Part shown: piece by piece, positions 32,207-36,812 of the stretch
Numbering within the stretch: position 1 is the first letter of the stretch
Layout of the letters: every line of letters begins with the position of its first letter
Assembly: GCA_963771045.1 (NCBI GenBank)
Contig: CAVYRW010000004.1
Coordinates: 544,001-608,000, forward strand
Source: Waddliaceae bacterium
GTDB taxonomy: Bacteria; Chlamydiota; Chlamydiia; Chlamydiales; SLFE01
Direction of reading: 5' to 3'
DNA length: 64,000 bases
Made by a program: the position numbers and the translations under genes
Notes under the pieces: model-generated
What the model was told of the DNA's origin: nothing
The model's database searches: none
Seen by the model: the letters and a program-made list of their open reading frames with translations, nothing else

Positions 32207-32864
32207 ATTCTATCTTATAATCGACACGAGTACCAAGCAGGGGCTTGTGGCTTTATTCCGGGGGGAGGAGTGTGTCAAGGAAGTTATGCTGCCTCACGGG
32301 TTTCAGAATTCCCGCACGCTTTTGCCTGTACTCGATGATTTATTTTCTACTCTAAGTAAGAAACCGCAGGATCTTGACTTTGTCGCCGTGGGAATAGGCC
32401 CGGGATCCTACACAGGTATACGTGTCGGCGTTGTGGTGGCCAAGATGATTCACTATACCTGTAAAATTCCACTTGTCGGCGTCTGTTCTCTTACCGCTTT
32501 TGTTCCCCGCCGCGAGGGAAAATTCGTTTCCCTTCTCGACGCGCGGGTCAGCGGAGTCTATGCTTTGGAAGGGGAGAAGGTTCAGGATAAAATTACCTGG
32601 TCTTTGCAGCCCAGGGCCATCGCTCTGGAAGAATTTTCTTCCGATCCTTTTGATATTCTTGTCACCCCCCATGAAAAGCTTCTGGATACAATTGCAACAG
32701 ACAAGCCGTGGGAGGTTGCGGCTCCAGACGCCGGTTCTTTAGCGGCATCCGCTCTTGCCAACTTCCGCTCGGGAAAAGTCGCCGAAGACGGCCGCGTCGA
32801 CATCCTCTACCTTCGCAGAACCCAAGCTGAACTTGAGCAGGAAAAAGAGGTAAAAGATGGATAG
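32199..32864 (+). CDS. tsaB: tRNA t6A biosynthesis protein TsaB
   Basis: LIIDTS, GIGPGSYTGIRVG, LDAR, ILYLR. Confidence 0.92.
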   Translation: MNEFYLIIDTSTKQGLVALFRGEECVKEVMLPHGFQNSRTLLPVLDDLFSTLSKKPQDLDFVAVGIGPGSYTGIRVGVVVAKMIHYTCKIPLVGVCSLTAFVPRREGKFVSLLDARVSGVYALEGEKVQDKITWSLQPRAIALEEFSSDPFDILVTPHEKLLDTIATDKPWEVAAPDAGSLAASALANFRSGKVAEDGRVDILYLRRTQAELEQEKEVKDG

Positions 32865-34245
32865 TCATTCTATAGGAAAATTTCCAAGCGCTGAATTGCA
32901 AGTCAGAGAACCTTTAAAAAATGATAATCATCGAATCTCATTCGCGCTGTTAGTGTCTAGATCCAGGGAATTTTATCAACGTATTCCGGTTCCGATCAAA
33001 CAAAATAGAATTGAAACCTTTGCAATGACGAAGAAAAAGCAAGACGAAGTATTAGATCATGCCCTAAAAACCCGTCCTATTTTCCATAAAAGGTTGGTTT
33101 TGTTAATTGCCGATTTTTTAAAATTTAAGAAGAAATATGGAACTGCAAAAGAAAAAGCCGTTTATCGAGAGCTGGATGTATCGGATTTCATCGATAGGGT
33201 GCTAAAAAAACGGCCTGTCGTATTTATCGACGGCTGCGATGATTATTTTCTCAGAAATAAAGCGGAGGGGATTGGAGGTTTTGAGAAAATCGGTACAGAA
33301 GAAGAGGAGCCGCCTTTGATATTAAAAGATTATATCTCCTATGACGAGATGCCTATTTCGGCAATGGTCAGTTTATCCTCTCCAACACACTTTATCAATA
33401 ACGGCTCAAAGGATAATCAGGGTATTAAGGGCGAGGAGGGTTCTTACGAGAAGAAAGGAATTTATGTGGGAATGGTTGGAGCGCGATTTGAAAAACCCGG
33501 CTATATGGAGTGGCGGCACATGATTGTTTCACCCAAGCAAAATACTCCGAAGAATGGTTATGGCAGACAGGGGAAAGAAGAAGCTGCCCAGAAATTTAAA
33601 TTTTTAGAGATATGGGCAAAGTTTTATGAAGAAGGGAAGAGAGAGGAACATTATTTCCCCGCCTACGATGATGTTCTCAAGGATAAAACGGGAAAATTCC
33701 TGAAAATCAAAAAAAACATTTTTTTAAATACATCCGTTTATAAAAAAAGAATAAGAATGTCGCTCGAGCCTTTTTTTATCGATGCAAATGAAAGAGCCAA
33801 AGATAAAAAAAAGCAAGCTTATGTCATTGTGGAAGGGATTGGTCTGGGAGTTTGGAAAATAGCAAAAGAACAATCGAATTTGATGCTTGAAGTTTGCGCT
33901 GAGATTTTAAATGATTATGAGTTTCCAAACATTTCCGATATTAACTTCTGCAGGATTGAAGGAGACCCTTTGTATTTTCAACAATTGCAACTGAAAGAAA
34001 AGGGCATAAAGTATCATTTTACTGATAGGGAGCCGGCAGAAAAATTACAACAGCCGCATGACGGGAAATTACTTGTTACCTCATATGCCTGGGATGGCAA
34101 CAGCTATCCTGGCAATGAATATTGGCGGGGATGGCTGGCTTCATCAGCAGACCCGGCTGCTGCTTGCTGTTCTCATATTTCCGAGTTGCAAAATCCTGAA
34201 ATCAATCCCATGGTCTCGGGAGACAATGCAAGAGCATTGATATGA
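32857..34245 (+). CDS. DUF4804 / MavL-Larg1-like macrodomain ADP-ribosylhydrolase (putative)
   Basis: KKRPVVF, YISYDEM, FINNG, GARFEKPGYME, GIGLGVW (macrodomain diphosphate loop), SYAWDGNSYPGNEYW...SADPAAACCS.I.ELQNP. Confidence 0.75.
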   Translation: MDSHSIGKFPSAELQVREPLKNDNHRISFALLVSRSREFYQRIPVPIKQNRIETFAMTKKKQDEVLDHALKTRPIFHKRLVLLIADFLKFKKKYGTAKEKAVYRELDVSDFIDRVLKKRPVVFIDGCDDYFLRNKAEGIGGFEKIGTEEEEPPLILKDYISYDEMPISAMVSLSSPTHFINNGSKDNQGIKGEEGSYEKKGIYVGMVGARFEKPGYMEWRHMIVSPKQNTPKNGYGRQGKEEAAQKFKFLEIWAKFYEEGKREEHYFPAYDDVLKDKTGKFLKIKKNIFLNTSVYKKRIRMSLEPFFIDANERAKDKKKQAYVIVEGIGLGVWKIAKEQSNLMLEVCAEILNDYEFPNISDINFCRIEGDPLYFQQLQLKEKGIKYHFTDREPAEKLQQPHDGKLLVTSYAWDGNSYPGNEYWRGWLASSADPAAACCSHISELQNPEINPMVSGDNARALI

Positions 34246-34249
34246 GAGA

Positions 34250-35170: not shown

Positions 35171-35185
35171 AGGTATTCCTTATTT

Positions 35186-35395
35186 TTATTGACGATCCAA
35201 AAGATCATCGCTCAATGCATCCAATTTTTTAGCCTTCCATTCTTCTTCAGTAAGTTCTACACCAATAGGGCCGTTCATTCTATAAAAGCCTGTCTCAGTA
35301 ATTTCTAATGGGGGACTTTCACGTGCCTTTTTTCTGTCTTCGATAAGCTTATTTTTAAGAGCATTGAGATCTTTTTTGTTTTTTTTATCCGGCAT
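35186..35395 (-). CDS. Small charged hypothetical protein (69 aa) between the two toxin-like genes
   Basis: ATG preceded by GGAGG; overlaps the upstream stop; ends 15 nt before the ART start. Confidence 0.55.
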   Translation of the reverse strand: MPDKKNKKDLNALKNKLIEDRKKARESPPLEITETGFYRMNGPIGVELTEEEWKAKKLDALSDDLLDRQ

Positions 35396-36812
35396 TGCTT
35401 CCTCCTATGAATCCCAGTTCTTGAGCGGCCTTGAGCTGGTAACTGCTACTTAAATAGCGTCCTGGCAGCTCTTTGCCTCGTTTTTGCATTGCAGCTTCAA
35501 GCTGCTTTTGAAAGTCAGGGTCGTTTGGATAAGCGCTTTCAAAAGAATCCGGCCCGGGAGTGTAGTCCACTCCATGCCAGCTTCCGGCTTCTTTGATTTC
35601 GTGATAGGAGTGGTCGCCCGAGCTCACCATCCAGCTTGTAAGAGCCAGGATTCCTTTCTCTTTAAACTCAGTCATTCCAAGATATTTCATACCCTGCAGA
35701 AAACTATCTGTTGTTCCTGAGGGACCAGTTACAATCGGCAGCCCGCCTAAGGCAATGGCTTTTCTATAAAAGCCGGTGTTTTCATCGACTCTATAAAGAT
35801 CTTTTCCTCTCACCCATTGCACTCTGCGTTTTCCTAAATTCAGGCCTTTAGCTTTGTTTTTTTTCATCGCATCAAACTCTTCTTCCGAAATATAATCTTC
35901 CAGTGCGGCACGAGCTTCTCTAAGAGTGAGATCTTGAATATCTTTGACTTTTGGGGCAGGCTCATTTTTTTTCCCCGAAACGACAATCCGCCCTCCGGAT
36001 TTTCTAAATTCTGCAAGCGGCTTTGCTTGGGCAAAAAATTTAGCAACAGGACTTGCCTTCTCTTCGCTCGATTCCCTTATGGCTCTCAAAGCCCCTGTAT
36101 TTATCTGAAATCCGGCATCTTCCTTTTCCAGTATTATATTGATCTTATCGACTAATTCAGGATCGTCAAAAATTTTCGGCAAGGCGGTCCAAAGGGATGC
36201 ATAAATCAAACTCATATGCTCTCTTAAAGTTCCTTCTTTTAGAGCATTTTCAATTGCTATCGGATTAAAGCCGATATTTCCTGTACCGGTCCCTTCCGAT
36301 GCAAATTCAACAGATGTGGCAAGTCTGATTTTCAATTCCTTCATTACGGGTGTGGAGTTTTCCATCTCGCCCAAAATTTCCTGATAGGCTTTCGCTATTA
36401 AGCCAATCCTTTTGGCCATCGCCTGGGCAAACTCTTTTGCGTCGGGGTGTTTTGAAGAAAGTTCAGTAATTGCCGATTCAAAGACTTCGAGACTTTCTCT
36501 ATAAGATTTGATGCATTCGTCAACAATTTTTTGTTTTTGTGAATTTGACAGCTCTTGGAGGTTGGGGGCAAGCTTCATTTGACTTGCAATTTCAGAGGCC
36601 TTTGGATGCTGCGGCGCATAACCTCTCAATACAAGGCGAGCCCTTGTTGAAAGAGTTTTTTTTAGATTTTTGAAAGAAAGTAAGTTAATTTGGCTTATTC
36701 TGCCAGATTTTGGGCTTTCTACCTTTTTACCTACAATTTTTTGTGATATATCCGAGAGGCGATAGTCCCTTTTTTCCCGCGAAGCAGGTGAAATATGCCC
36801 TTCTCCGCTCAT
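35385..36812 (-). CDS. S-HxxxE (LnaB/Ntox11-like) AMPylase-family toxin/effector (putative)
   Basis: GLPIVTGPSGTT followed 36 residues later by GDHSYHEI (HxxxE); GTLREHM motif; Ser/Pro/Lys-rich N-terminus. Confidence 0.7.
   Translation of the reverse strand: MSGEGHISPASREKRDYRLSDISQKIVGKKVESPKSGRISQINLLSFKNLKKTLSTRARLVLRGYAPQHPKASEIASQMKLAPNLQELSNSQKQKIVDECIKSYRESLEVFESAITELSSKHPDAKEFAQAMAKRIGLIAKAYQEILGEMENSTPVMKELKIRLATSVEFASEGTGTGNIGFNPIAIENALKEGTLREHMSLIYASLWTALPKIFDDPELVDKINIILEKEDAGFQINTGALRAIRESSEEKASPVAKFFAQAKPLAEFRKSGGRIVVSGKKNEPAPKVKDIQDLTLREARAALEDYISEEEFDAMKKNKAKGLNLGKRRVQWVRGKDLYRVDENTGFYRKAIALGGLPIVTGPSGTTDSFLQGMKYLGMTEFKEKGILALTSWMVSSGDHSYHEIKEAGSWHGVDYTPGPDSFESAYPNDPDFQKQLEAAMQKRGKELPGRYLSSSYQLKAAQELGFIGGSNAG

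What the first reader, a model, noticed from the sequence alone, without database searches (positions are those of the whole stretch)
32857..36812. Candidate chlamydial ADP-ribosylation writer/eraser/AMPylase module (LnaB-like + small ORF + Arg-ART, facing a MavL-like hydrolase)
Seen in sequence: a visibly AT-rich block between tsaB and a YbjT-like gene. It holds a tightly packed minus-strand unit (475-aa S-HxxxE protein, 69-aa ORF, 306-aa R-S-ExE ART) whose last stop lies 4 nt from the stop of a convergent 462-aa DUF4804-like gene. None has a Sec signal; all three large proteins start with Ser-rich, unstructured-looking N-termini. Established: in Legionella, MavL and Larg1 are DUF4804 macrodomains that remove ADP-ribose from arginine. 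Larg1 is encoded beside its cognate ART Ceg3, and MavL beside LnaB, the S-HxxxE phosphoryl-AMPylase that converts phosphoribosyl-ubiquitin to ADPR-ubiquitin. Inference: all three activities in one locus of a chlamydia suggest a self-contained, probably type III-secreted effector/metaeffector circuit that writes, remodels and erases Arg-ADP-ribose on a host target. I know of no description of such a locus in Chlamydiae.
Basis: partly seen in the sequence, partly recalled or inferred. Interest (0 to 1): 0.9.

Follow-up and report, generated by a model that had tools for sequence, protein, structure and literature searches.

The report
Chlamydial ADP-ribose write-repair-erase cassette
An environmental chlamydia carries an inserted four-gene block whose products are predicted to add ADP-ribose to arginine, to plug that enzyme with a tiny inhibitor, and to remove the mark, plus an AMP-transfer enzyme that likely rebuilds trimmed marks, which would extend a chemistry so far shown only in Legionella.

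Summary
The four ORFs are real. They form an insertion between tsaB and a ybjT-like gene, and two relatives have the empty site. The 462-aa protein is a DUF4804 arginine-ADP-ribose hydrolase family member with both motifs intact, closer to Drosophila CG3568 than to MavL. The 306-aa protein is an R-S-ExE ART with a Vis/HopU1-like fold. The 475-aa protein is an MCF1-SHE enzyme, closer in fold to Mcf than to LnaB. The trio recurs, with shuffled order, in three other chlamydial loci that I read. New here: (1) the 69-aa ORF is predicted to plug the ART active site (0.73 against best control 0.02), and its motif was found only beside ART genes; (2) chlamydial SHE genes sit within 4 kb of an ADP-ribose eraser of three families in 8 of 14 genomes (0.11 expected); (3) 40 of 145 SHE relatives are fused to an ART. 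The SHE substrate is untested, and SHE enzymes vary (SidL modifies 3-phosphoglycerate). No phosphodiesterase travels with the cassette. Secretion is inferred only. Neither my literature searches nor this scan's notes showed such a locus. Verdict: new variant of a known kind.

The parts
32857..34245 (+). DUF4804 / MavL-like macrodomain, predicted arginine ADP-ribose hydrolase (462 aa, P0001); overlaps the tsaB stop by 8 nt
   Evidence: PF16062 E 9e-121; PDB 8dmu CG3568 E 5e-72, MavL only E 4e-5; motifs VEGIGLGVW at 325 and WDGNSYPGNEYW at 412 match both published patterns
34250..35170 (-). R-S-ExE mono-ADP-ribosyltransferase (306 aa, P0002): R197, S222, E273-x-E275
   Evidence: phmmer to Vis E 2e-4; model pLDDT 81.6; Foldseek Vis E 1e-9; VIA Z 14.1 to Vis (rmsd 3.6, 179 aligned) and HopU1 (rmsd 3.5, 188 aligned); NCBIfam XopAI E 1e-7, far under cut-off
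35186..35395 (-). 69-aa protein of no known family (P0003), predicted active-site plug of the ART through its RMNGPIG segment
   Evidence: No Pfam or NCBIfam hit; homologues in L001 and L080; complex score 0.73, best control 0.02, contacts at ART R197 and S222; motif found only next to ART genes
35385..36812 (-). MCF1-SHE (S-HxxxE) protein (475 aa, P0004): S365, H401, E405; predicted AMP transferase
   Evidence: Triad invariant in 14 of 14; model pLDDT 74; VIA Z 12.8 to Mcf 8p51 (rmsd 3.2, 206 aligned), 9.1 to LnaB 8k6e (rmsd 4.6, 222 aligned), 5.2 to SidL; the top ten rows of the second look are all Mcf or the Legionella actin-bound effector entries
36813..36963 (-). Very AT-rich upstream spacer, likely promoter region of the minus-strand unit
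   Evidence: 22.5% GC; promoter scan gave nothing convincing, so the role is inferred from position

Best explanation
This is an inserted four-gene cassette of environmental chlamydiae that likely runs a reversible arginine ADP-ribosylation cycle: the ART is predicted to write the mark, the 69-aa protein is predicted to plug the ART, the DUF4804 protein is predicted to erase the mark, and the SHE protein likely re-adds AMP to marks trimmed to phosphoribose. Shown: gene identities, intact motifs, insertion at an otherwise empty site, repeated linkage. Predicted by modelling: folds and the ART-plug complex. Inferred: the three large proteins are type III effectors acting on a host (probably protist) protein; the plug keeps the ART silent in the bacterium before export; the eraser sets the lifetime of the mark; the SHE enzyme turns phosphoribosyl-arginine, made by a host Nudix-type or an unlinked bacterial phosphodiesterase, back into ADP-ribosyl-arginine, which both restores the mark and returns it to a form the eraser can remove. 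My odds by step: ART and hydrolase are a cognate pair 0.75; small protein inhibits the ART 0.65; export to a host 0.7; SHE acts on the phosphoribosyl stub of a protein 0.45-0.5.
For: Trio read directly in 4 loci: window, L001 (same genus, same site, transposase between ART and hydrolase), L080 (order small, ART, SHE, convergent hydrolase), L056 (ART, SHE, convergent hydrolase). Linked hydrolases group on one branch, SH-aLRT 99 in a quick tree, with one ungrouped long-branch row inside; linked SHE proteins group too, support 88, with four rows of unknown context inside. Empty tsaB/ybjT junction in G401 and G014. 40 of 145 further SHE relatives carry an ART domain, 13 of them profile seeds (Pfam finds 13 of 51 scanned); such fusions are in print (PMC3482391 section 14). 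ARH was found in 3 of 21 SHE-positive genomes and lies within two genes of SHE in all 3. An eraser (DUF4804, ARH or Macro) is within 4 kb of SHE in 8 of 14 genomes having both, 0.11 expected at random. Complex of ART and small protein: 0.73, best of 3 controls 0.02, runs agree in at least 72% of contacts, partner pLDDT at least 68; the mark was reached by 116 of 157 solved complexes and 2 of 215 mismatched pairs. The only match of the small-protein profile in genome G423 (E 0.027) lies directly behind that genome's ART gene. T3SS core genes are in the genome. lnaB and mavL are neighbours and act in sequence (PMC11142304).
Against: No activity was measured. SHE enzymes differ in substrate: SidL adenylates 3-phosphoglycerate, and LegK4 and Lpg0209 did not adenylate proteins (PMC13431035). 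P0004 has no sequence match to LnaB and Foldseek E-values are above 0.001. A SidE-type phosphodiesterase exists in this genome, about 1.37 Mb away, but was found in only 2 of the 20 SHE-positive genomes, against 24 of 401 overall, and not in G249, G401, G419, G229 or G399, all incomplete. 6 of 14 genomes with both SHE and an eraser have them unlinked; 12 of 14 DUF4804-positive genomes have no SHE match; four related ARTs have no SHE or hydrolase in the flanks held, two of them at contig ends. The 8 linked genomes are perhaps only 3-5 independent events, effectors cluster in islands, and the SHE-eraser link may be indirect, through an ART. The predicted interface on the ART is no more conserved than the rest (0.62 against 0.62). 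Secretion signals are weak.
Confidence: 0.45

Rival explanations
1. The ART, plug and hydrolase form a writer-inhibitor-eraser unit, and the SHE protein is a separate co-delivered toxin that adenylates a host metabolite or phosphoprotein or drains ATP, as SidL/Ceg14 does; it travels with ARTs because the two poisons act well together.
For: SidL and LnaB are related yet use different substrates (PMC13431035). SHE occurs without any detected eraser or ART nearby in many chlamydiae. Best fold match is the Mcf effector domain, a stand-alone toxin of unknown mechanism. No linked phosphodiesterase.
Against: Linkage to ARTs and to three unrelated eraser families recurs on several SHE branches, more specific than generic toxin clustering would predict.
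Confidence: 0.28
2. The SHE protein adenylates a small phosphoribose metabolite, for instance NMN to NAD+ or ribose 5-phosphate to ADP-ribose, and so feeds or recycles the ART's co-substrate instead of repairing protein marks.
For: Same chemistry as LnaB (AMP onto a ribose phosphate); needs no phosphodiesterase, which fits its absence; fits SHE-ART fusions. The LnaB paper itself raises phosphoribose-bearing metabolites as possible substrates.
Against: No such activity appears for any SHE protein in the passages read; it is my inference and explains the eraser link only through the ART.
Confidence: 0.12
3. The block is a toxin-immunity system acting on bacterial proteins, like Tre1/Tri1 split into two genes: the plug blocks the active site and the hydrolase reverses self-poisoning in the chlamydial cytoplasm, used against co-infecting bacteria or as an addiction module.
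For: Tri1 protects both by occluding the active site and by ARH activity (PMC8120803). Tre1 is a close fold match, Z 12.8. The hydrolase gene overlaps the tsaB stop and is probably co-transcribed with housekeeping genes. Many SHE-ART fusions carry an eCIS-core domain typical of polymorphic toxins.
Against: No delivery domain on any protein; SHE has a variable disordered N-terminus typical of effectors; DUF4804 precedents in bacteria are host-acting metaeffectors; L080 lies beside a TPR protein and a RasGAP-like gene.
Confidence: 0.12
4. The genes are unrelated effectors that happen to share an island.
For: Chlamydial effectors cluster; each gene family also occurs alone.
Against: Same trio in different order and at different sites in two families, dedicated hydrolase branch, eraser replacement.
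Confidence: 0.03

Closest known systems
Legionella LnaB (Lpg2527) and MavL (Lpg2526)
   Same: Neighbouring SHE and DUF4804-class genes; triad and both hydrolase motifs intact; fold match Z 9.1-9.3.
   Different: No sequence match to LnaB; hydrolase far closer to CG3568 than MavL; writer is a small single-domain ART in the same cassette, not SidE; no linked phosphodiesterase; target unknown; T3SS host instead of Dot/Icm.
Legionella Ceg3 (Lpg0080) and Larg1 (Lpg0081)
   Same: Adjacent R-S-ExE ART and arginine-specific macrodomain eraser (PMC9191684).
   Different: Adds a SHE gene and a predicted peptide inhibitor; the ART models as Vis/HopU1-like; no direct comparison with Ceg3 was run.
MCF1-SHE plus ART polymorphic toxins (Zhang et al. 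2012; 'classical MCF1-SHE' of Black et al. 2026)
   Same: SHE next to a HopU1-like ART; our profile retrieves these fusions.
   Different: Here the two are separate genes with an eraser and a plug and no delivery domain; the fusions' SHE function is untested.
Serratia Tre1/Tri1
   Same: R-S-E ART controlled by both active-site occlusion and an arginine ADP-ribose hydrolase; fold Z 12.8.
   Different: The two protections are separate genes, the hydrolase is a macrodomain not DraG-like, no PAAR domain, and a SHE gene is added.
Drosophila CG3568 / RE54994p (DUF4804)
   Same: Best solved relatives of the hydrolase, E 5e-72 and 1e-69 over about 400 residues; arginine-specific in vitro.
   Different: Eukaryotic, no known partner ART.

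Membership tests
DUF4804 / MavL-like hydrolase | Pfam PF16062 over cut-off | tested here: met
   404 bits against cut-off 27
DUF4804 / MavL-like hydrolase | Motifs [VIL]xGxGxGx[FWY] and WDxx[SA]xPGN[DE][FY][FWY] (PMC10951314) | tested here: met
   Residues 325-333 and 412-423
DUF4804 / MavL-like hydrolase | Hydrolysis of arginine-linked ADP-ribose | not testable with these tools
   Needs an assay
R-S-ExE arginine ART (ARTC) | ARTC fold | tested here: met
   Foldseek E 1e-9 to Vis; Z 14.1 to Vis and HopU1; top 19 rows with Z 8.5 or more are ART toxins or ART-containing proteins
R-S-ExE arginine ART (ARTC) | Catalytic R, S-x-S and ExE | tested here: met
   R197, S222-C-S224, E273-D-E275, aligned to Vis and conserved in 12 homologues
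R-S-ExE arginine ART (ARTC) | Transfer of ADP-ribose to arginine of a protein | not testable with these tools
   Specificity inferred from ExE (PMC9191684)
MCF1-SHE / S-HxxxE superfamily | Conserved Ser and HxxxE on a helical core | tested here: met
   S365, H401, E405 invariant in 14 of 14; helical model
MCF1-SHE / S-HxxxE superfamily | Fold shared with Mcf and LnaB | tested here: met
   Z 12.8 and 9.1, next unrelated row 5.3, among 48161 chains; middling for a helical protein but supported by the motif
LnaB clade (NM1S-2) | Sequence or tree placement with LnaB and SidL | tested here: inconclusive
   No phmmer match to any PDB chain including LnaB; relatives have the eCIS-core+SHE+ART layout drawn for the classical clade; no tree with LnaB was built
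LnaB clade (NM1S-2) | C-terminal actin-binding helix and actin activation | tested here: inconclusive
   Alignments run to model residue 473-475 against LnaB 361-368 in several entries, but only range ends are shown; binding untested
LnaB/MavL pathway | A cognate phosphodiesterase that makes the phosphoribosyl substrate | tested here: inconclusive
   Present but unlinked in G000; not found in five incomplete relatives; no co-distribution
Tre1/Tri1-type toxin-immunity pair | Immunity protein occludes the ART active site | tested here: inconclusive
   Model supports binding at R197/S222; not measured
Type III effectors | T3SS in genome and translocation signal | tested here: inconclusive
   SctJ- and SctV-type genes found; N-terminal composition only weakly suggestive

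The most novel reading that the evidence does not exclude
MCF1-SHE proteins are a general third arm of ADP-ribosylation conflict: they re-AMPylate phosphoribosyl stubs left when a host trims a bacterial ADP-ribose mark. Chlamydiae carry this as a modular write-repair-erase cassette in which both writer (R-S-ExE ART, or the unknown family X) and eraser (DUF4804, ARH or Macro) are swapped around a constant SHE gene, with a new family of 70-residue peptides silencing the ART inside the bacterium.
Probability: 0.35. Interest if true: 0.88.

Novelty: new variant of a known kind. Interest (0 to 1): 0.74.

Why it matters
A 2024 review states that it is unknown whether re-AMPylation of phosphoribosylated proteins is widespread or special to Legionella (PMC11668277). 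This cassette supplies writer, eraser and SHE enzyme in 4 kb from a non-Legionella symbiont, so that question can be tested with four small recombinant proteins. It also offers a function for the long-noted SHE-ART fusions, a candidate new family of peptide ART inhibitors, and candidate ADP-ribosylation effectors in environmental chlamydiae.

Tried and rejected
Paralogues: one SHE, one ART of this kind and one DUF4804 gene in G000. Co-distribution with a SidE-type phosphodiesterase: not found. Family X as an ART: PDB profile searches blank, Pfam blank, Atlas gave only a lead (OspC cluster at 0.83, under the 0.9 bar) and nothing for a second member; left unproven. Likeness of family X to the C-terminal half of the G000 phosphodiesterase protein: hhalign probability 0.3. 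The 318-aa neighbour of SHE in G034 as an ART: motif-like only, PDB and hhalign blank. Atlas could not be used for the 69-aa protein. Terminal repeats or target duplication: none convincing. Promoters and terminators: counts not clearly above shuffles. The careful hydrolase tree did not finish; the quick tree is quoted. Nine of the 12 DUF4804-only loci were fetched and none has SHE or ART in its flanks. PMC13036486 was not relevant. Literature searches listed no paper on such a chlamydial locus; 'chlamyd' had zero hits in the main text of PMC11142304, PMC13431035, PMC10951314, PMC12522546 and PMC8120803. The SidL supplement lists two chlamydial SHE proteins with no ART or macrodomain annotation. 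Wang et al. 2024 (Nature) and the supplements of PMC11142304 were not seen and could list chlamydial homologues. Expression data were not sought.
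Full report
Observation. The four ORFs are at the stated coordinates, tightly packed, with four bases between the convergent stops. 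The block is 39.4% GC against 44.7% for the genome, in the lowest 6.8% of windows, and its third-position GC is 0.29-0.38 against a median of 0.50. It is an insertion: in G401 (same genus) the ybjT-like and tsaB stops are two bases apart, and in G014 (same family) the two matches are about nine bases apart. No terminal repeats were found. The claim of Ser-rich disordered N-termini is fair for the SHE protein, weak for the others.

The hydrolase. P0001 matches PF16062 at E 9e-121. Its best solved relatives are the Drosophila DUF4804 proteins (E 5e-72 and 1e-69), with MavL at only E 4e-5. Both signature motifs given by Zhang et al. (PMC10951314, passages read) are intact. All four enzymes tested in that paper were arginine-specific.

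The ART. P0002 has R197, S222-C-S224 and E273-D-E275, conserved in its 11 homologues. The model (pLDDT 81.6) matches Vis and HopU1 at Z 14.1, XopAI at 13.2 and Tre1 at 12.8 (Foldseek E 1e-9). ExE indicates arginine specificity (PMC9191684, passages).

The SHE protein. P0004 has no Pfam or PDB sequence match. Its triad S365, H401, E405 is invariant in 14 of 14 aligned sequences. Among 48161 chains only Mcf (Z 12.8, rmsd 3.2, 206 aligned) and LnaB (Z 9.1, rmsd 4.6, 222 aligned) exceed Z 8, and a second look ranks ten such entries far above the rest. It is therefore an MCF1-SHE protein. Whether it belongs to the LnaB clade is unresolved: its relatives have the layout that Black et al. draw for the classical clade (PMC13431035 passages, supplement 1 part 1 and searches of supplement 5).

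Linkage of the trio. I read the trio in four loci: the window; L001, same genus and site; L080 from family f5, order small ORF, ART, SHE, then convergent hydrolase cut by the contig end; and L056, ART cut by the contig end, SHE, convergent hydrolase. P0005/P0023/P0031 correspond to L056 and P0006/P0021 to L080 and are not counted twice. Matching contig lengths suggest four more loci (13145, 4974, 5484, 5865 bases), but I did not read them. The linked hydrolases fall on one branch among 70 rows (SH-aLRT 99, quick tree, 61 of the 119 listed homologues included, one ungrouped row inside). The cassette is rare: of 400 chlamydial genomes, 20 have SHE and 14 have DUF4804, and only G000 and G249 have both.

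SHE keeps company with ADP-ribose enzymes. Of 145 further SHE relatives, 40 carry an ART domain, 13 being seeds of my profile; this fusion was noted in 2012 (PMC3482391 section 14). Among 21 SHE-positive chlamydial genomes, ARH was found in three, and in each an ARH gene lies within two genes of SHE. Two genomes of one genus have a Macro gene about 1.2 kb from SHE. In all, 8 of 14 genomes with both SHE and an eraser have them within 4 kb, against 0.11 expected; these are about 3-5 independent events and random placement overstates the contrast, since effectors cluster. The ARH loci hold an unnamed family X instead of the ART; X was found in 4 of the 21 genomes, each time in a SHE or ARH locus. 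X-linked SHE genes lie on three branches. X may be a divergent ART, but that rests on weak leads.

The small ORF. P0003 has homologues in L001 and L080 (49% identity). Folded with the ART it scored 0.73, best of three controls 0.02; the mark was reached by 116 of 157 solved complexes and 2 of 215 mismatched pairs; runs agreed in at least 72% of contacts, partner pLDDT at least 68. Residues 40-48 contact R197, S222 and strand 214-217, with E273 and E275 in the interface, which is the NAD+ site. This supports binding and does not show it. The motif occurs once in the 2.57-Mb genome and, in 140 loci, only in four genomes, always beside an ART gene (the strict pattern was written after seeing all four, the looser ones gave the same hits). 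In G423 the single profile match lies behind a lone ART; three other ART-bearing genomes had none. Tri1 offers a precedent for occlusion plus hydrolysis (PMC8120803, passages).

Against a full LnaB-type circuit. LnaB needs a phosphoribosyl substrate made by a phosphodiesterase (PMC11142304, passages). G000 has a SidE-type domain far away, but the domain does not track the cassette. Host Nudix or ENPP enzymes could supply the stub; the review cites such processing and calls the generality of re-AMPylation open (PMC11668277, passages). SHE enzymes also act on metabolites, and Mcf's effector domain showed no ART activity and has no known mechanism (bioRxiv 2023.08.14.553178, passages). The eraser link may run through the ART. 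T3SS genes are present, but export is inferred.

Mechanism and odds. Most likely the ART, held silent by the plug, is exported and modifies a host arginine; the hydrolase limits the mark; the SHE enzyme re-AMPylates trimmed marks (0.45 for the whole). Rivals: SHE as an independent adenylating toxin (0.28), SHE as a maker of NAD+ or ADP-ribose from phosphoribose metabolites (0.12), an antibacterial or self-protective toxin-immunity system (0.12), chance clustering (0.03).

Novelty. Each pair has a precedent (LnaB/MavL, Ceg3/Larg1, SHE-ART fusions, Tre1/Tri1). The four-part cassette, the swapping of erasers around SHE and the peptide inhibitor were not found in ten literature searches or in this scan's notes (one note, e1-9729589, concerns unlinked genes in a protist). 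The library lacks most subscription papers, and I did not see Wang et al. 2024 or the LnaB supplements. PMC13720258 and PMC12522546 were read as passages; PMC13439196 and PMC12092593 only as listings. Verdict: new variant of a known kind, interest 0.74.

Noticed in passing
G000:C4:1953039-1955486 (L095:8040-10487, minus): 816-aa protein with a SidE-type phosphodiesterase domain (PF12252 E 7.5e-38; SdeA E 1e-13) and an unassigned C-terminal half with ART-like motifs by eye. The domain is in 24 of 401 chlamydial genomes.
   Followed up: partly
L057:5363-7174, L062:9106-10917, L005:2543-3607, L136:3097-4959, L072:7439-10828, L134, L135: Unnamed protein family X, 8 members, each in a locus with a SHE and/or ARH gene in G229, G144, G399 and G324; possibly a divergent ART; G324 has three SHE+X pairs.
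   Followed up: partly
L082:9084-9320 (G423): 78-aa ORF directly behind a lone ART, sharing the SET..RMxGP.G motif with the 69-aa protein; second context for the predicted inhibitor.
   Followed up: partly
L137 / L059:9250-10203 (G034): 318-aa gene behind SHE with FRGD, VSQSLS and EKE motifs suggestive of another R-S-E ART; no database support.
   Followed up: partly
L058:4333-6121 and L061:10581-12375 (G060, G053): SHE gene followed by two small proteins, one with a weak ubiquitin-family hit (E 0.012), and a Macro-domain gene; the SHE gene of G053 is in two frames.
   Followed up: no
proteins P0014, P0024, P0026, P0027, P0028, P0032: All report a longest contig of 13145 bases, suggesting one locus with one SHE, four ART paralogues and one hydrolase; DNA not read.
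   Followed up: no
L001:10743-11582: DDE transposase inserted between the convergent ART and hydrolase stops in the sister genome.
   Followed up: partly
L064:7819-11493, L065:7443-12098: Proteins of about 1200 and 1550 aa with two SHE domains in tandem (G188, G286).
   Followed up: no
P0034: Close DUF4804 relative annotated in the ostracod Darwinula stevensoni assembly; could be a symbiont contig or a host gene.
   Followed up: no
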